Positions 2,293 to 43,645 of a DNA stretch of 64,000 nt are shown here, piece by piece. The position numbers were made by a program, and so were the translations under genes. The notes below the pieces were generated by a model. It was given only the letters and a program-made list of their open reading frames with translations. It ran no database searches and was not told the origin of the DNA. The DNA is from a virus, in IMG/VR virus record IMGVR_UViG_3300010375_000019, positions 4,333 to 68,332 of that record. One strand, 5' to 3'. How positions within the stretch are numbered: position 1 is the stretch's first letter; every line of letters begins with the position of its first letter.

Positions 2293-4005
2293 CTATTTTG
2301 GGAAACCATTTTCAACGTGCAATTTTTCAAACGATGGGTTTTTGGTGATTTTTTCAGCCTCATTGTAGGTTGATTCGAACAGTAAGTCCCACGCACATAT
2401 CTTTCCTGGTGCCTCTACAAGGTTCCATCCATTGCGTTTAAAAAGACTGACCCATGCCTCCGTTGGTCTGACGTTCACGTGTCCCCATTGTCTGTCGAAT
2501 TCCACCGATGATTGATAAGGCGTGCTGCTGAAATATAAGTATTTCATGCTCTCCGATAGTTTCCTTACAAAACTGTCCCACCATTCGTCTGGCATGTCGA
2601 TGTGCTCAAACACCTCGATAGAAATACCTAAGTCTGTTTTCTCGATCGTGAGTTCATCTAGGTTTTCCATTGCGAAATCACATTTCATGATGCAGTCAGA
2701 GAACACGGGGTTTCTCTCTCGGAAGTAGTCGATAAAGTAGTCGTTTATCTCAAGACCAATCGAAGGCACGTTTGACATCAGGAACCGCTCAAGCATGGGA
2801 CCAGGGCCGCATCCGAACTCTATCATGGACTCAGGCGACAGTTTATTGATGAGCCAGTCCGCCACGGCATGGTGACCGTTTTTATAGTTCTCATTCTCCT
2901 GTATGTAGCCGTTGAGCAGTGCATATTCGAAGAACCTCTTACCATCCCAAGGGGTTGCTTCGATTACATTTGGCGAAAACAATTTATGCCCTCTGGATAG
3001 TTTGTACATGATTTCCTTTCGTACGGTGTTTACATTGTCAAGGCCTGGAAGGTGCTCTATGCTTTCGATGTACAGTTCATGTCTTATTTTCGGATTCTCC
3101 GCAAGTGTCGAAAAAGTGTCTATAAAATCCTGTACACCTTCGAATACGGCACATCCCTTGGAGGCATCGAACACTGGTAAAGCGGAGGCCATCACCGTGG
3201 CCCCTGCCAAGGTACCTTCCTGCCAACTGATTGCACTCTTTGCCCTGTTGAAATGGTTGTCCTCCAACGGAACCACCATGATCTCCGGCCTGATCTGCAT
3301 TAGATGCGAAAAATACGCCATCAGGTTGGTGAACTCGTAATGCAATATGCGTTTTGAGTTATAGTTCCTTTCCAGCATCCAGTCGAACTTGTGGCCGTAG
3401 AACACCCATGTGTACTCGGGATATTTTTCGAAACAATGAAGCATGGCCTCTTTGTAGACCTCTGCATCGCGTGCATGCGTGTCCCCTCCCCTCCACAATA
3501 CTGTCTTGGTGCGTTCGATATTTTTGGGACTGAATATGGAGAAATCCACCGCGTTAGGTACCACAATAATTTCCGCCTGATGCGGAAGTTCCAGCAATGA
3601 TTTTTTGATGTACTCCGTGCTCACGGTTATCATGTCCGCTTTGGCAATGCACTCCCTGATGTACGCCTGACGTTGCGTGTCCGCATACAGGTCGTGCCTG
3701 GGGTTTGTGCTAGGTATCTTGATGTAGTCATCATCGTAATCTATCCATACTGGCTTGTTGGAACGCTTGGCCATCTCGATGATGCCAAGGCAGATGTTCG
3801 TGCTGGGACGTTGCAGAAAGACAACATCGATGTTCTGCAACGTATGCCAGTTATATTCGAATCCGGCACTTCCGTTAATGACCTTGATGTCGTTGTTGGT
3901 TTTGGCCAGTCTATTGAAAGGACCGAATCCGCGATAGAAGCTGGTCGCATCTGCCGCAATTGGACAGTGAATCAATATTTCCATGTTATGTGGTTTGGTT
4001 TCCAC
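2293..4005 (-). CDS. Glycosyltransferase (GT-B) fused to class I SAM-dependent methyltransferase
   Basis: N-terminal DVVFLQRP / IDYDDD / ADMITVST / VVPNAVD / PLEDNHFNRAKS; C-terminal EFGCGPG, SIEVFEHI, WGHVN. Start may be ATG 3984. Confidence 0.85.
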   Translation of the reverse strand: METKPHNMEILIHCPIAADATSFYRGFGPFNRLAKTNNDIKVINGSAGFEYNWHTLQNIDVVFLQRPSTNICLGIIEMAKRSNKPVWIDYDDDYIKIPSTNPRHDLYADTQRQAYIRECIAKADMITVSTEYIKKSLLELPHQAEIIVVPNAVDFSIFSPKNIERTKTVLWRGGDTHARDAEVYKEAMLHCFEKYPEYTWVFYGHKFDWMLERNYNSKRILHYEFTNLMAYFSHLMQIRPEIMVVPLEDNHFNRAKSAISWQEGTLAGATVMASALPVFDASKGCAVFEGVQDFIDTFSTLAENPKIRHELYIESIEHLPGLDNVNTVRKEIMYKLSRGHKLFSPNVIEATPWDGKRFFEYALLNGYIQENENYKNGHHAVADWLINKLSPESMIEFGCGPGPMLERFLMSNVPSIGLEINDYFIDYFRERNPVFSDCIMKCDFAMENLDELTIEKTDLGISIEVFEHIDMPDEWWDSFVRKLSESMKYLYFSSTPYQSSVEFDRQWGHVNVRPTEAWVSLFKRNGWNLVEAPGKICAWDLLFESTYNEAEKITKNPSFEKLHVENGFPK

Positions 4006-40542: not shown

Positions 40543-40758
40543 ATGAAACCACAAAGAGAAGAAGGTTTTTATAAAATCAAAGTTACTGAATTTGGTCCGC
40601 CTTTTTGGACAATTGGTCTTTACCAGCATTACGGAAAAGATATGGCATGTTGGAGATTTGCCGAAGGTGACGGTGATGAAATGTCTTCCTCATTCAACGT
40701 CCTTGAAATAGATGAAAAAATGATAATGAAAGATCGTATTTACGAAGAGAAATTATGA
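40543..40758 (+). CDS. Hypothetical protein
   Basis: Coupled to the YqaJ-like gene. Confidence 0.5.
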   Translation: MKPQREEGFYKIKVTEFGPPFWTIGLYQHYGKDMACWRFAEGDGDEMSSSFNVLEIDEKMIMKDRIYEEKL

Positions 40759-41825
40759 TAAAACAAATCAGAATACCTCAACATACACCTCAATGGCACC
40801 AATGGCGTTTTGAACATGGCTTTGGCGGAAGCGACATCGCAGCTGTGGTAGCCACCAAATCAAAGACCATTGCTGATCTATCGTACACTTCGCCTGTGAA
40901 GCAATTCCTTACGTTCATCGGAGAACCGGTCGATCAATTTTCCGGAAACATTGCGTCAGAATCCGGTCATTACTTCGAGAATATAATTTTGGAATGGCTC
41001 AAATACTATGATCTTGAAGATCACGATCAGCTTGCAATGTTCAGGCGCATCAAGGCAAAAGAAAGACGGATCAACAAAGTAATCCAGCCTAAAGTGTTCA
41101 TGGTTAACTCCAAATATCCACATCTTTTTTATTCACCCGATGCGTGGGTTTTCCCTAACCACGGAAAAGACAAATGGCTCGGGGAATGTAAAAATACGAC
41201 CTCAATGGAGGCAAATCGCTACCTAGCAAAGGTGAGTCCTGCGTTCTATTTGCAGGTACAACAAGGATTAATGATAACCGAACTTCCTTATGCGCTGCTA
41301 AACATTTTGATCGATGGCCGCTGGCTGAACGTTATCCGTATAGAACCACATCAACCTACTTGGGACTTAATTATTGAAGCAAGCACTGAAATGTGGGATA
41401 AAATTCAAAGGGCACGCACTATCAAAAAGCAATACTCGTTGCCCAGTTATTTCGGAGTGAACCATGAAACACTTACAGAAGAACAACGCAAGGCAGTGGA
41501 GATGCTCACTGAACTGGAACCTGACATCACAGGAACAGAAAGCGAACTAGCATTTATACGGGAGATGATAAAACCTTCAGAGGTTGACAACCCCATGCAA
41601 GGGACAGAAACCCAGAGAACGCTTTGTGAAGAGTACCTTGGATTGGGAGACGAACAAGACCTTCTCGAGATAGAACGCAAGAAACGTCAGGTATGGCTCA
41701 TACAGTCGTTGCAAGGATCGAACAAAGCAGAATTCGAGGATGGGACATTTTTTTCTTATAAATCAGATACTCGTGGTTCTCGAAGATTGTATGTTTCACC
41801 TAAAATTTTAACATCAATAAAATGA
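40755..41825 (+). CDS. YqaJ-like viral recombinase exonuclease
   Basis: W..WR..GFGGSD, GH.FE, YSPDA, GECKNT, YLQVQ. Confidence 0.88.
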   Translation: MIKQIRIPQHTPQWHQWRFEHGFGGSDIAAVVATKSKTIADLSYTSPVKQFLTFIGEPVDQFSGNIASESGHYFENIILEWLKYYDLEDHDQLAMFRRIKAKERRINKVIQPKVFMVNSKYPHLFYSPDAWVFPNHGKDKWLGECKNTTSMEANRYLAKVSPAFYLQVQQGLMITELPYALLNILIDGRWLNVIRIEPHQPTWDLIIEASTEMWDKIQRARTIKKQYSLPSYFGVNHETLTEEQRKAVEMLTELEPDITGTESELAFIREMIKPSEVDNPMQGTETQRTLCEEYLGLGDEQDLLEIERKKRQVWLIQSLQGSNKAEFEDGTFFSYKSDTRGSRRLYVSPKILTSIK

Positions 41826-42404
41826 AAAAAGGAACTGAAATACTCAATGGGGTGGAAAACCCGATCACAATGGAAACGCCTTACATTGTGGACATTGAAA
41901 TTATAGGCGCGTGCCCCATTATCTTCCACCGCTGGTCATGCGAGGACGTAGCAAACAAAGCATCGGCCAAAAAAGGTAGTAAGGAAAAGAAATCAGACAA
42001 CATTGAGGCTTTCATTTATCGCGATCAGGAAGGCCATATCTGCCTTCCAGGTGAGTATCTGCGCATGGCAATGGTATATGCCGCCAAATTCAAGCAAGAC
42101 CCACGCAGTCCACGCAAATCGGCATTTGACCTGTTCAAGGCTGGAATAGTGCCTTTGACAGACTTGGCCAAAATAAATGGAGGTACAAAAAACTGGGATT
42201 TTATAGATCAGCGCAATTACAAGAATGCGTCCGGCTTTTTTGAAAGGATGGAGTGCGGAACTGCAATTGATGGTCAATACGCCTGAGTACATCGACTATC
42301 AGTTTTTCAGCGAGGTTCTTTCGATGGCCGGCAGGTTGATCGGGTTGGGCGATTTCAGGCCAACTTACGGAAGGTTCGATATTGCAAAATGTAAAATTTT
42401 ATAA
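41822..42404 (+). pseudogene. RAMP/Cas7-like protein split by one frameshift near 42212
   Basis: PIIFH, ICLPGEYLRMAM (cf. IPGSSLKG); the second frame 42213-42404 reads AITRMRPAFLKGW...AGRLIGLGDFRPTYGRF (glycine-rich loop). Confidence 0.75.
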
Positions 42405-42410
42405 ATTTTT

Positions 42411-42496
42411 GCTGAGGAGGGGTGTTGCAAGGTATGGTAGGTGTATGGTTCGGCGGGGCAGTGTCCGGTGCGGTCTGGAACCTTTCGGTGGAGGTT
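42411..42496 (+). ncRNA. Candidate guide RNA: (G/T)GY-NN pentamer array with 3' hairpin
   Basis: GGAgg GGTgt TGCaa GGTat GGTag g TGTat GGTtc GGCgg GGCag TGTcc GGTgc GGTct GG, then hairpin aacctt...gaggtt. Confidence 0.7.
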
Positions 42497-42510
42497 AACC
42501 GAATTTTTTT

Positions 42511-42897
42511 ATGAATCCATTTGAAAAATATTTATCAAAAGAAGATTTGCTTCACAAATCTGTTTTGGATTTTGTGAGGTATAAATACCCTCACGCAATA
42601 ATTGCTCATCCACCCAATGAAGGAAAAAGAACTCCGTTTGAGAGATTCAAAACAAAATGGCTTGGGATTTCAAGTGGATTACCTGATTTAATGATATTTT
42701 CACCATCGCATAGTTACTTTGGTCTAGCGATAGAAATAAAAGTAAAGCCCAACAAAATGACCGATAGCCAACTCAAATGGCACGAGAACCTCTTCAACTG
42801 TAGATGGCAGTGCGCCTGTGTGTACAACATAGACGAGGCCATGGATGTGATAAACGAATACTTCAACCCTGCAACTAAAAAATATGGAAATAACTGA
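42511..42897 (+). CDS. VRR-NUC domain nuclease
   Basis: E..LH, HPPNEGKR, GLPDLMI, LAIEIK, SQ..W. Confidence 0.9.
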   Translation: MNPFEKYLSKEDLLHKSVLDFVRYKYPHAIIAHPPNEGKRTPFERFKTKWLGISSGLPDLMIFSPSHSYFGLAIEIKVKPNKMTDSQLKWHENLFNCRWQCACVYNIDEAMDVINEYFNPATKKYGNN

Positions 42898-43279
42898 ATT
42901 TAGAATTGGTAACTTAATCAAAGTAAAAGACAAGATTGTTACAATTAATTCATTGAGTGCTGATGGATACAATCATTATGTAGATGATTATGGGCACTTT
43001 CCAATTTGTTGCTGGGAAAAAATATCTGAATCATCTCCTATTCTCCTCACTGAGGAATGGTTTTTTAAATTTGGGTTTAAGAGACTAAATTATGCTTTAG
43101 TTGGTCCAGCTACTGATAGTTATCTTCATCCTGAAGTAAGTATATGGAATCCACCAGGTGATGAAGAATTTAGACTTAATGACACTGTTCATTGCCCAAT
43201 TATTGTATTTGTCCATCAACTTCAAAACCTTTATTTCGCTTTGACAGGACAAGAACTAAAAATAATCGATAAACAATAA
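42884..43279 (+). CDS. Hypothetical phage protein
   Basis: EFRIGNL, PILLTEEW..KFGF, VHQLQNLYFALTG. Confidence 0.7.
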   Translation: MEITEFRIGNLIKVKDKIVTINSLSADGYNHYVDDYGHFPICCWEKISESSPILLTEEWFFKFGFKRLNYALVGPATDSYLHPEVSIWNPPGDEEFRLNDTVHCPIIVFVHQLQNLYFALTGQELKIIDKQ

Positions 43280-43282
43280 AAA

Positions 43283-43645
43283 ATGGAAACCTCAACAGAC
43301 ATCCGTAAAATCAAATTCATACCCTTGGGCGACCGCGTGCTCATAGAGCCTGATCCAGCTGCGTCCATTACCGATACTGGCATCATCATCCCTGAGACAG
43401 CAAAGGAACGCCCACAACTTGGAACAATCGTTGCCTGCGGTGAAGGCAAGGACAACGACAACGAAATCATCCAAAAACTCAACATGATCCTTGTCAAACT
43501 GGACGTGTCGTTCAAGTATTCACCGTTGCACAAGTTTGTTCCTGGTATGCGTGTCCTTTACGGAAGGAACGCTGGCAGCGAAATAGACTATGACGGAAGG
43601 AAATTGCTGATTATGCGGTTTTCAGACATCGCAGGAATTTTGTAG
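43283..43645 (+). CDS. groES: GroES co-chaperonin with internal insertion
   Basis: PLGDRVLIE, GIIIPETAKERPQ.GTIVA.GEG, RVLYG..AGSEI, LIMR.SDI. Confidence 0.9.
   Translation: METSTDIRKIKFIPLGDRVLIEPDPAASITDTGIIIPETAKERPQLGTIVACGEGKDNDNEIIQKLNMILVKLDVSFKYSPLHKFVPGMRVLYGRNAGSEIDYDGRKLLIMRFSDIAGIL

What the first reader, a model, noticed from the sequence alone, without database searches (positions are those of the whole stretch)
42411..42708. The array's dinucleotides decode to the catalytic motif of the neighbouring VRR-NUC gene, and the phage's own copy mismatches it
Seen: the NN series is (GA) GG GT AA AT AG AT TC GG AG CC GC CT (AC); the bracketed edge units are weaker. Spacing by one base and reverse-complementing gives GTn AGn GCn GGn CTn CCn GAn ATn CTn ATn TTn ACn CCn TCn, which codes V-(S/R)-A-G-L-P-(D/E)-(I/M)-L-(I/M)-(F/L)-T-P-S. 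The next gene reads ATT TCA AGT GGA TTA CCT GAT TTA ATG ATA TTT TCA CCA TCG (I-S-S-G-L-P-D-L-M-I-F-S-P-S) at 42667-42708: same motif and register, 7 of 14 dinucleotides identical. The differences are conservative substitutions or synonymous changes at codon positions 1-2 (Ser TCA vs AGn, Leu TTA vs CTn). Inference: the guide reads codon positions 1-2 and skips the wobble base, so most synonymous mutations cannot escape it. It would target the VRR-NUC allele of related phages while self is protected, as in homing or phage-phage interference. The 5' half of VRR-NUC also looks more AT-rich than its 3' half, consistent with co-transfer with the cassette.
Basis: partly seen in the sequence, partly recalled or inferred. 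Interest (0 to 1): 0.95.

Follow-up and report, generated by a model that had tools for sequence, protein, structure and literature searches.

The report
VIPR guide RNA spelling a nuclease motif
The five-base repeat tract is the guide RNA of a VIPR system, a CRISPR-like phage weapon first described in 2026; its variable letters spell the catalytic motif of a nuclease gene as carried by other phages, while this phage's own protein gene for the system is broken.

Summary
42411-42481 is 14 pentamers of the form KGY-NN, with one extra G at 42441. Reverse-complemented with one skipped base, it matches 7 of 14 dinucleotides (19 of 28 bases) at 42667-42707 in the VRR-NUC gene, in codon register.

- **Chance:** as a peptide the match is far beyond chance, with 0 of 5000 shuffles reaching it. 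Both halves of the array pick abutting sites.
- **Membership:** the upstream gene is a Vipr homologue (PDB 36pp, profile E 6.9e-12). Homologues in 11 of 13 related viral loci are followed by such arrays.
- **Targets:** the own copy scores 0.68, under the published 0.8 threshold. VRR-NUC genes of unrelated phage contigs reach 0.82-0.89. The exact 12-unit pattern has no hit anywhere.
- **Lesion:** vipr here carries a 23-nt frameshifting deletion.
- **Not supported:** co-transfer with VRR-NUC.

This scan has noted VIPR on other DNA many times.

The parts
41822..42213 (+). vipr gene, 5' part (frame of ATG 41822) up to the deletion junction. In this frame the ORF runs on out of register to a stop at 42286.
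   Evidence: 86% identical to the L001 homologue and matches phrog_4652. The alignment places the junction after the residues DQR.
42214..42404 (+). vipr gene, 3' part in another frame. It holds the thumb Arg-Pro and the G-loop GDFRPTYGRF. The stop is at 42402-42404.
   Evidence: phrog_4652 E 6.9e-12. The translated piece hits PDB 36pp_D, the SUSP1 Vipr protein, at E 6.3e-6. Compared with L001, 23 nt are missing at 42213/42214 (position ambiguous by 1 nt), which removes the conserved RRVxIQR segment and shifts the frame. Contigs of two runs of one sample agree with the window, with no indel.
42411..42481 (+). vrRNA repeat tract: 14 KGY-NN units with one extra G at 42441 between units 6 and 7.
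   Evidence: Parse. The period-5 autocorrelation is 0.43 against about 0.28 for other periods. The tract is unstructured (fold z 0.8). It is the only such array in the 68,332-nt genome. Like arrays follow vipr homologues in 11 of 13 loci.
42484..42510 (+). vrRNA 3' tail: a 6-bp hairpin with an 8-nt loop, then a T7 run (terminator-like). It ends at the ATG of VRR-NUC.
   Evidence: Relatives' arrays also end in GGAA followed by a hairpin.
42511..42897 (+). VRR-NUC nuclease gene (128 aa), the phage's own allele.
   Evidence: PF08774 E 1.1e-7; phrog_824 and phrog_5702. D59, E75 and K77 are invariant in 45 homologues.
42667..42707 (+). Footprint of the guide on the phage's own VRR-NUC (residues 53-66, ISSGLPDLMIFSPS). 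It matches 19 of 28 read bases, with the skipped bases on codon position 3.

Best explanation
This is a VIPR locus (Viral Interference Programmable Repeat) on a 68-kb phage contig. It holds a vipr gene for a stand-alone RAMP/Cas7-like protein, followed by one vrRNA gene of 14 KGY-NN units and a hairpin/U-run tail.

In the published mechanism, one Vipr protomer binds each repeat and hides the GGY bases. The NN pairs are then presented to double-stranded DNA, which is read as NNx, with one base skipped per unit. Binding silences transcription.

The 14 NN pairs of this guide spell V-[S/R]-A-G-L-P-[D/E]-[I/M]-L-[I/M]-[F/L]-T-P-S. This is the strand that carries the catalytic Asp of the PD-(D/E)xK motif of VRR-NUC nucleases, read at codon positions 1-2 on the coding strand.

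The cognate target is therefore a VRR-NUC gene of another phage or mobile element. The phage's own allele, placed directly after the vrRNA, matches only 0.68 of the read bases, which is below the published 0.8 threshold. Two of its seven mismatched codons are synonymous switches within six-fold codon families (Ser TCA for AGN, Leu TTA for CTN).

In this genome vipr carries a 23-nt frameshifting deletion in the thumb region. The guide could therefore act only with Vipr supplied in trans by a co-infecting relative; otherwise the locus is a recent relic.

Shown here: the anatomy, the homology, the decoding statistics, the database matches and the lesion. Inferred: expression, loading onto Vipr, and silencing.
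For: Protein.
- A profile of 10 homologues hits the PDB SUSP1 Vipr protein at E 6.9e-12 over positions 30-201 of 208.
- A single homologue hits it at E 7.5e-7, and the window's own 3' piece at E 6.3e-6.
- The residues that contact GGY in SUSP1 are H17, R138, D177, W178 and R179 (paper section 5). They align with invariant H, R, D, an aromatic residue (mostly F), and R of this clade (the residue count is my own).

RNA.
- The tract has 14 pentamers with a tail.
- GGY-NN arrays follow vipr homologues in 11 of 13 viral loci whose neighbouring genes otherwise differ.

Code.
- The 1-nt skip, wobble alignment and 0.8 threshold are published.

Target.
- At peptide level, 0 of 5000 shuffles reach the observed score.
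- The two halves of the guide hit abutting sites.
- In 80 VRR-NUC loci picked by protein similarity alone, the best match is 23 of 28, and 0 of 600 shuffles reach it (maximum 21).
- An 8-unit sub-pattern gave 13 viral hits, 11 of them in VRR-NUC-type motifs. The best are L117 and L119 at 25 of 28, or 0.89. The L119 ORF is PF08774, E 3.6e-13.
- The phage's own genome reaches at most 19 of 28.

Lesion.
- The deletion is documented, and independent contigs from two runs of one sample agree with the window.
Against: - No exact or near-exact target was found. The 12-unit core pattern has 0 hits in viral, metagenome and genome contigs. The 9-unit middle pattern gave 0 viral hits and 5 metagenome hits, all in stop-filled frames that are not VRR-NUC.
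- The 0.82-0.89 matches sit in phages unrelated to this one, at a motif conserved across the family. They may reflect family conservation rather than the true prey.
- The phage's own allele (19 of 28) is no further from the guide than the average homologue (19.7 of 28).
- One unit is irregular (the extra G at 42441), and 4 of 14 scaffolds begin with T rather than G.
- The vipr gene is broken, so activity in this genome is doubtful.
- No conserved vap accessory gene was seen.
- Tolerance to mismatches in this clade is unknown.
- I could not see the papers' supplementary tables, which list targets and types.
Confidence: 0.8

Rival explanations
1. Decayed remnant. After the vipr deletion the locus has no function. 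The guide still spells the VRR-NUC motif only because too little time has passed for it to drift.
For: A 23-nt frameshifting deletion removes invariant residues of the family. It is present in contigs of two runs. No perfect target was found.
Against: Both vipr halves are still 86% identical to L001, with the motifs intact. The array, hairpin and T-run are intact. Vipr-less phages that keep solo vrRNAs are described in print as numerous (346 de-replicated phages; paper section read).
Confidence: 0.4
2. Self-regulation. The guide binds the phage's own VRR-NUC at partial complementarity (0.68) and tunes its transcription.
For: The best site in the whole genome is in the gene immediately downstream.
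Against: A score of 0.68 is under the published 0.8 threshold. Published systems showed no self hits at 0.8 or above. Shuffles reach 19 of 28 somewhere in the genome in 52 of 300 trials. The vipr gene is broken.
Confidence: 0.05
3. Two guides. The extra G at 42441 splits the tract into a 6-unit and an 8-unit vrRNA. The 8-unit guide (units 7-14) targets serine recombinase genes of other elements at the motif ISGRPALT.
For: The 8-unit pattern is matched exactly (16 of 16 bases) in 17 viral contigs. Ten of these fall in 219-237-aa ORFs and are wobble-aligned on the coding strand. Two of those ORFs were tested and are PF00239 Resolvase. A recombinase active-site stretch is a proven VIPR target in print, and staggered arrays with 1-nt offsets are described in print (fig. 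S18 legend).
Against: The match stops at the 8 units that I searched with; the whole guide scores 18-21 of 28 there. The 17 hits amount to about five independent events: the recombinase family, a portal family with 4 hits, and 3 singles. That is about what a 16-base pattern yields by chance. Units 1-6 continue the VRR-NUC motif in register, which a split guide does not explain.
Confidence: 0.08
4. Homing-like cassette. The vipr-vrRNA unit inserted next to VRR-NUC. It attacks the cassette-free allele of sister phages and spreads by repair, carrying the mismatched 5' part of VRR-NUC with it.
For: The guide is aimed at the gene next to the cassette. The 5' half of VRR-NUC is AT-richer than the 3' half (0.326 against 0.412). 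Other notes of this scan report similar layouts (unchecked by me).
Against: The published activity is silencing, not cutting. The cassette has GC 0.45, unlike the AT-rich stretch, which also extends over the next ORF. No sister phage was found to compare. None of 13 related vipr loci lies next to a VRR-NUC relative of the window's gene.
Confidence: 0.07
5. The array is a binding site on a leader RNA for a ring-shaped attenuation protein (TRAP-like). It would control the terminator in front of VRR-NUC, with the NN bases acting as mere spacers. This was my first idea.
For: The tract has 5-nt periodicity with a constant triplet, followed by a hairpin and T-run before the gene.
Against: The NN series carries information (0 of 5000 shuffles). 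The partner protein is a Vipr homologue. The array travels with vipr, not with VRR-NUC.
Confidence: 0.01

Closest known systems
VIPR systems; the experimental exemplar is type II of Escherichia phage SUSP1 (bioRxiv 10.64898/2026.04.26.720920 and 10.64898/2026.04.26.720927; PDB 36pp)
   Same: A stand-alone RAMP-like Vipr gene next to tandem GGY-NN repeats with a structured 3' tail. The repeat count (14) lies within the published 9-16. The target decodes under the 1-nt skip rule with the skipped base on the wobble position. The locus is phage-borne. The GGY-contacting residues are conserved.
   Different: Only about 20-25% identical to SUSP1 Vipr by eye in the alignment; this figure was not computed. 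There is a single vrRNA rather than four. The scaffold is KGY, with T at position 1 in 4 units, and there is one 6-nt unit. The tail is a plain hairpin terminator; no pseudoknot was tested. No conserved vap gene was seen. The type (I-VII) could not be assigned because the supplements were closed. The vipr gene is frameshifted.
Wobble-aligned targeting of a catalytic-site stretch: SUSP1 vrRNA4 on the F5 satellite recombinase (bioRxiv 10.64898/2026.10.15.759431)
   Same: The guide footprint reads codon positions 1-2 of a conserved active-site strand, so silent third-base changes cannot escape it.
   Different: The target class here is a VRR-NUC nuclease. The terms 'VRR-NUC', 'Holliday', 'resolvase' and 'endonuclease' have 0 occurrences in the main text of two of the papers. 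I did not search the structure paper for them, and I could not see the supplements. The carrier phage has its own allele of the target right beside the guide.
VIPR-null phages with solo vrRNAs (same October 2026 preprint, section read)
   Same: A phage without a working vipr keeps a vrRNA whose self-match is lower than its match to other phages' genes.
   Different: Here vipr is still present as a recently broken gene rather than cleanly deleted. The guide aims at a nuclease gene, not at vipr, vrRNAs or satellites.
Class 1 CRISPR Cas7 backbone filaments
   Same: An RRM/RAMP protein polymerises on a guide RNA, and a thumb interrupts pairing periodically (as stated in the papers).
   Different: There is no CRISPR array, no spacer acquisition genes and no other cas genes. 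Two of every five guide bases pair, rather than five of six.

Membership tests
VIPR (Vipr + vrRNA) | A Vipr protein: a stand-alone RAMP homologue related to SUSP1 Vipr | tested here: met
   The profile of 10 clade members hits PDB 36pp_D at E 6.9e-12, nearly full length. The window's own 3' piece hits at E 6.3e-6. There are no Pfam or NCBIfam hits. The window's copy is frameshifted, so this is membership by descent, not an intact gene.
VIPR (Vipr + vrRNA) | Residues that hold GGY (SUSP1 H17, R138, D177, W178, R179) | tested here: met
   In the alignment together with the invariant columns, H, R (of the R-P pair), D and R are invariant. W is replaced by F in most members. The residue mapping is my own count. 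In the window these residues lie partly in the out-of-frame 3' piece.
VIPR (Vipr + vrRNA) | vrRNA of 9-16 tandem GGY/NN pentamers beside vipr | tested here: met
   There are 14 units at 42411-42481, starting 7 nt after the vipr stop. Ten scaffolds are GGY or GGA, three are TGY and one is GCT. One extra base lies at 42441. The paper notes 'frequently observed internal degeneracy'.
VIPR (Vipr + vrRNA) | A structured, invariable 3' tail after the repeats | tested here: inconclusive
   A 6-bp hairpin and T7 run are present. Relatives end in GGAA plus hairpins of differing sequence. The pseudoknot of the SUSP1 clade was not tested, and there is no alignment of tails in this clade.
VIPR (Vipr + vrRNA) | The NN series decodes under the 1-nt skip rule to a natural target at NN match >=0.8, with no self hit >=0.8 | tested here: met
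   L117 and L119 match 25 of 28 (0.89). L023, L113, L116 and L118 match 23 of 28 (0.82). The own genome reaches at most 19 of 28 (0.68). No perfect target was found.
VIPR (Vipr + vrRNA) | An accessory vap gene next to vipr | tested here: not met
   The neighbours of the 13 homologous loci differ: an AAA ATPase, an SNF2 helicase, an HNH nuclease, a Clp protease and unknowns. Here the neighbours are a YqaJ exonuclease and VRR-NUC. The paper says loci 'typically' have a vap, so this feature is not strictly defining.
VIPR (Vipr + vrRNA) | The RNA is expressed, bound by Vipr and represses its target | not testable with these tools
   No RNA run was listed. This needs a bench test.
VRR-NUC / PD-(D/E)xK nucleases (the gene at 42511-42897) | A Pfam VRR_NUC domain with the catalytic D ... 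E-x-K | tested here: met
   PF08774 at 32.3 bits, over the cut-off of 23.8. D59, E75 and K77 are invariant in 45 homologues. That these residues are catalytic is recalled knowledge of the PD-(D/E)xK superfamily.

The most novel reading that the evidence does not exclude
A phage that has just lost its own vipr keeps a single guide placed directly in front of its own VRR-NUC gene. During co-infection the guide loads onto a rival's Vipr and shuts down the rival's VRR-NUC. The phage's own allele escapes partly through the only silent route open against a wobble-skipping guide: switches between the two codon blocks of six-fold amino acids (Ser AGN to TCN, Leu CTN to TTR). This would be a natural example of recoding-based self/non-self discrimination, with DNA-repair nucleases as a new class of VIPR prey.
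Probability: 0.12. Interest if true: 0.6.

Novelty: new member of a known kind. Interest (0 to 1): 0.35.

Why it matters
That is reassuring for the scan, but the mechanism is not new.

What this locus adds is modest:
- **A new candidate prey class.** The guide spells the catalytic strand of VRR-NUC nucleases. This class does not appear in the main text of the two papers I searched for it.
- **A self copy beside the guide.** The guide's own-genome homologue sits right next to it and differs partly by Ser and Leu codon-block switches. This shows a silent escape route that the published "no escape without changing the protein" argument leaves open.
- **A freshly broken vipr with an intact guide.** This may be an intermediate on the way to the published solo-vrRNA phages.
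- **A divergent Vipr clade.** It uses KGY scaffolds and irregular units, which could help define what the protein really requires of its RNA.

Tried and rejected
- **Rfam.** Nothing real over 42200-42750. The best match was RAGATH-15 at 17 bits against a gathering score of 199.5.
- **blastn of 41800-43300 against GenBank phages.** No match.
- **TRAP-like attenuator idea.** Rejected; see the rival explanations.
- **Other skip lengths.** Gaps of 2, 4, 6 and 7 gave nothing in the window, with no site reaching 7 of 14. Gap 5 gave a best site of 9 of 14; I read it as the array matching itself but did not check its position.
- **Exact patterns.** The 12-unit core gave 0 hits in viral, metagenome and genome contigs. 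The 9-unit middle pattern gave 0 viral hits and 5 metagenome hits. The four hits whose frames were printed are stop-filled and not VRR-NUC; the fifth (L098) scored under 20 of 28 and was not printed.
- **The 5' 8-unit pattern.** It gave 17 hits, none in VRR-NUC: 10 in serine recombinases, 4 in a portal family and 3 singles.
- **VRR-NUC relatives in prokaryote genome contigs.** Eight loci were found, with guide identity 15-21 of 28.
- **Closest VRR-NUC proteins.** P0002 is 65% identical and 11 of 14 codons are compatible with the guide.
- **RNA runs.** No RNA holder was listed. Only contigs of one sample were laid.
- **Not used.** I did not run structure prediction, fold search, complex prediction, the search of protein representatives or the protein-atlas search. 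The sequence-level match to the solved Vipr structure made them unnecessary.
- **Supplements.** The papers' supplements (target tables, type assignments, figures S17-S18) were closed. They may already list VRR-NUC targets or this clade.
Full report
**What is there.** Window 42405-42510 is the spacer between two + strand genes. It holds 14 pentamers of the form (G/T)G(C/T/A)-NN at 42411-42481, with a single extra G at 42441 between units 6 and 7. A 6-bp hairpin with an 8-nt loop and a T7 run follow and end at the ATG of the next gene. The repeat tract itself is unstructured, with a fold z-score of 0.8. Rfam has nothing for it. It is the only such array in the 68,332-nt contig.

**The flanking genes.** Upstream lie a YqaJ/RecE-like exonuclease (40755-41825) and a gene of phrog_4652 split over two frames (41822-42286 and 42225-42404). 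Downstream lie a 128-aa VRR-NUC nuclease (PF08774), a phrog_10066 ORF and a GroES-like gene.

**Check of the observation.**
Reverse-complemented with one free base between dinucleotides, it matches 7 of 14 dinucleotides (19 of 28 bases) at 42667-42707, in the codon register of ISSGLPDLMIFSPS.
- At the DNA level this is only suggestive. It is the single best site in the window. However, shuffled unit orders reach 7 of 14 somewhere in the window in 265 of 500 trials, and inside VRR-NUC in 12 of 2000. At base level, 52 of 300 shuffles reach 19 of 28 somewhere in the genome.
- At the peptide level it is decisive. The decoded V-[RS]-A-G-L-P-[DE]-[IM]-L-[IM]-[FL]-T-P-S scores 57 on the motif. The shuffle maximum is 40 in VRR-NUC (0 of 5000) and 45 in the six-frame window (0 of 300).
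- The two halves of the array, on either side of the extra G, independently pick residues 53-60 (0 of 5000) and 61-66 (21 of 5000). These sites abut in register.
- The footprint covers G56, D59 and F63, which are invariant in 45 homologues. E75 and K77 are invariant downstream of it. This fits the PD-(D/E)xK layout as I recall it.

**What it is.**
- The phrog_4652 gene has homologues in 13 viral contigs. In 11 of them the DNA just after the stop codon holds GGY-NN pentamer arrays. Often there are several arrays, each closed by a hairpin; L010 has 22 perfect units.
- Apart from this gene, the loci share nothing with the window at blastp E<1e-5, other than a few short opposite-strand ORFs that overlap this gene, and their neighbours differ. 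The array is therefore the partner of this gene, not of VRR-NUC.
- Pfam and NCBIfam do not know the protein. A sequence search of the PDB finds one entry, 36pp 'SUSP1 Vipr protein'. It hits at E 7.5e-7 with one homologue, E 6.9e-12 with a profile of ten, and E 6.3e-6 with the window's own 3' piece.

**The literature.** That name led to three 2026 bioRxiv preprints.
- *10.64898/2026.04.26.720920* (abstract, Results and Methods sections 20, 26 and 27 read). It describes VIPR systems: a phage-borne stand-alone RAMP protein and vrRNAs of 9-16 GGY/NN repeats with a 3' tail. Only the NN bases read double-stranded DNA under a '1 nt skip' rule, and the skipped bases fall 'overwhelmingly' on wobble positions. 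Natural targets are taken at 80% NN match or more. There is no PAM and there were no self hits.
- *10.64898/2026.04.26.720927* (abstract and sections 5 and 6 read). It gives the filament structures and the residues that hold GGY.
- *10.64898/2026.10.15.759431* (abstract, sections 8 and 17, and passages read). It shows a guide whose footprint lies on the active-site strand of a satellite recombinase, so that wobble mutations cannot escape. It also describes 346 vipr-less phages with solo vrRNAs whose self-match is lower than their match to rivals.

The GGY-contacting residues (H17, R138, D177, W178, R179) align with invariant H, R, D, F (mostly) and R of this clade (the mapping is my own count).

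**The target.**
- By the published scoring the own genome has no target; the maximum is 0.68.
- In 80 viral loci chosen only for encoding a VRR-NUC relative (about 50% identity), identity at the motif ranges from 16 to 23 of 28. The mean is 19.7: 45 loci score above the own copy's 19, 11 equal it and 24 fall below.
- The best of these, L023 at 23 of 28, is reached by 0 of 600 shuffled guides, whose maximum is 21.
- An 8-unit sub-pattern found 13 viral contigs, 11 of them at VRR-NUC-type motifs. L117 and L119 match 25 of 28 (0.89, decoding to VKAGVPDILIFTPT). L113, L116 and L118 match 23 of 28.
- The L119 ORF is PF08774 but only 35% identical to the window's protein. No vipr lies in the fetched parts of those loci.
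- So natural VRR-NUC alleles above the published threshold exist and the phage's own allele is below it. The true prey, expected to match nearly perfectly, was not found, and no sister phage could be retrieved.
- Of the seven mismatched codons in the own copy, two are synonymous block switches (Ser TCA against AGN, Leu TTA against CTN).

**Results against or beside the reading.**
- The complementary 8-unit pattern (units 7-14) has 17 exact viral hits, none in VRR-NUC. Ten lie in 219-237-aa ORFs with a shared serine-recombinase motif (ISGRPALT), two of which tested as PF00239 Resolvase, and are wobble-aligned on the coding strand. Four lie in a portal protein family, and three are singles. Beyond those 8 units the match falls to chance level, at 18-21 of 28 overall. 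I count about five independent events, which a 16-base pattern can give by chance. I keep it as a minor rival because recombinases are proven VIPR prey and because the block starts at the extra G.
- The own allele is not unusually far from the guide compared with other homologues, so active self-avoidance is not demonstrated.
- The co-transfer inference fails. The 5' half of VRR-NUC is AT-richer (0.326 against 0.412), but so is the next ORF (0.318), while vipr is at 0.45 and the window at 0.433. No related vipr locus has a VRR-NUC relative of the window's gene.

**The broken effector.** Aligned with L001 (86% identical protein), the window lacks 23 nt at 42213/42214. This removes the conserved RRVxIQR segment, including columns R139, R140, V141 and R145 that are invariant. 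The segment aligns with the stretch just before SUSP1's thumb residue R138. The deletion also shifts the frame, so the thumb Arg-Pro and the G-loop are out of frame. Logan contigs of two runs of one sample cover the junction with no difference. Depth is about 5 and this is probably the source sample, so the support is not independent. The lesion therefore looks real and recent. The guide could work only with Vipr supplied in trans, as published for solo vrRNAs, or else the locus is a relic.

**Verdict.**
- The mechanism is right but already in print.
- The specific target call (a non-self VRR-NUC allele) is well supported statistically and passes the published threshold in the databases, but no exact prey was found.
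- Co-transfer is not supported.
- The locus is a new member of a known kind.
- This scan has already noted VIPR loci many times: 481 notes in at least 371 genomes. They include cassettes whose guide spells the neighbouring gene's allele (these notes were not checked by me).

Noticed in passing
window 42213/42214: A 23-nt deletion relative to L001 inside vipr. It removes the conserved RRVxIQR segment and shifts the frame. It is supported by contigs of two runs of one sample.
   Followed up: yes
window 42441: One extra G between units 6 and 7 makes a 6-nt unit, yet the decoded target stays in register across it. L002 shows a 4-nt unit in one of its arrays. How a one-protomer-per-pentamer filament copes with this is unexplained.
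   Followed up: partly
window 42500-43280: An AT-rich island (GC about 0.28-0.41 in 100-nt steps, against 0.43 for the window) covers VRR-NUC and the following phrog_10066 ORF. It may have been acquired separately.
   Followed up: partly
L120-L136 (for example L126 9952-9974): Units 7-14 of the guide match 16 of 16 read bases in serine recombinase genes of 10 viral contigs at the motif ISGRPALT, wobble-aligned. They also match in a portal protein family at VSAGLPDM (4 contigs).
   Followed up: partly
L007 about 3637-3680; L011 about 1203-1240; L012 about 2504-2540: A shared element (GGGAACTTT..AGG..AAAATC.CGTCTAA) follows the vrRNA in L007. In L011 and L012 it follows vipr directly; these two loci lack a downstream array but have short GGT-NN runs upstream of vipr (L011 18-42, L012 1509-1533).
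   Followed up: no
L009 3601-3933; L013 3599-3749; L001, L002, L004, L005 downstream of vipr: Multi-guide arrays in which each run of 8-23 pentamers is closed by its own hairpin. Tail sequences differ between loci, though L010 and L013 share a tail that begins TTA.GG..TTACGATAAA.
   Followed up: no
L099-L102, L106: VRR-NUC relatives in prokaryote assemblies sit mostly in Bacteroidota MAGs (Saprospiraceae, Flavobacteriaceae, Chitinophagaceae). This is a weak hint at the host phylum of this phage group.
   Followed up: no
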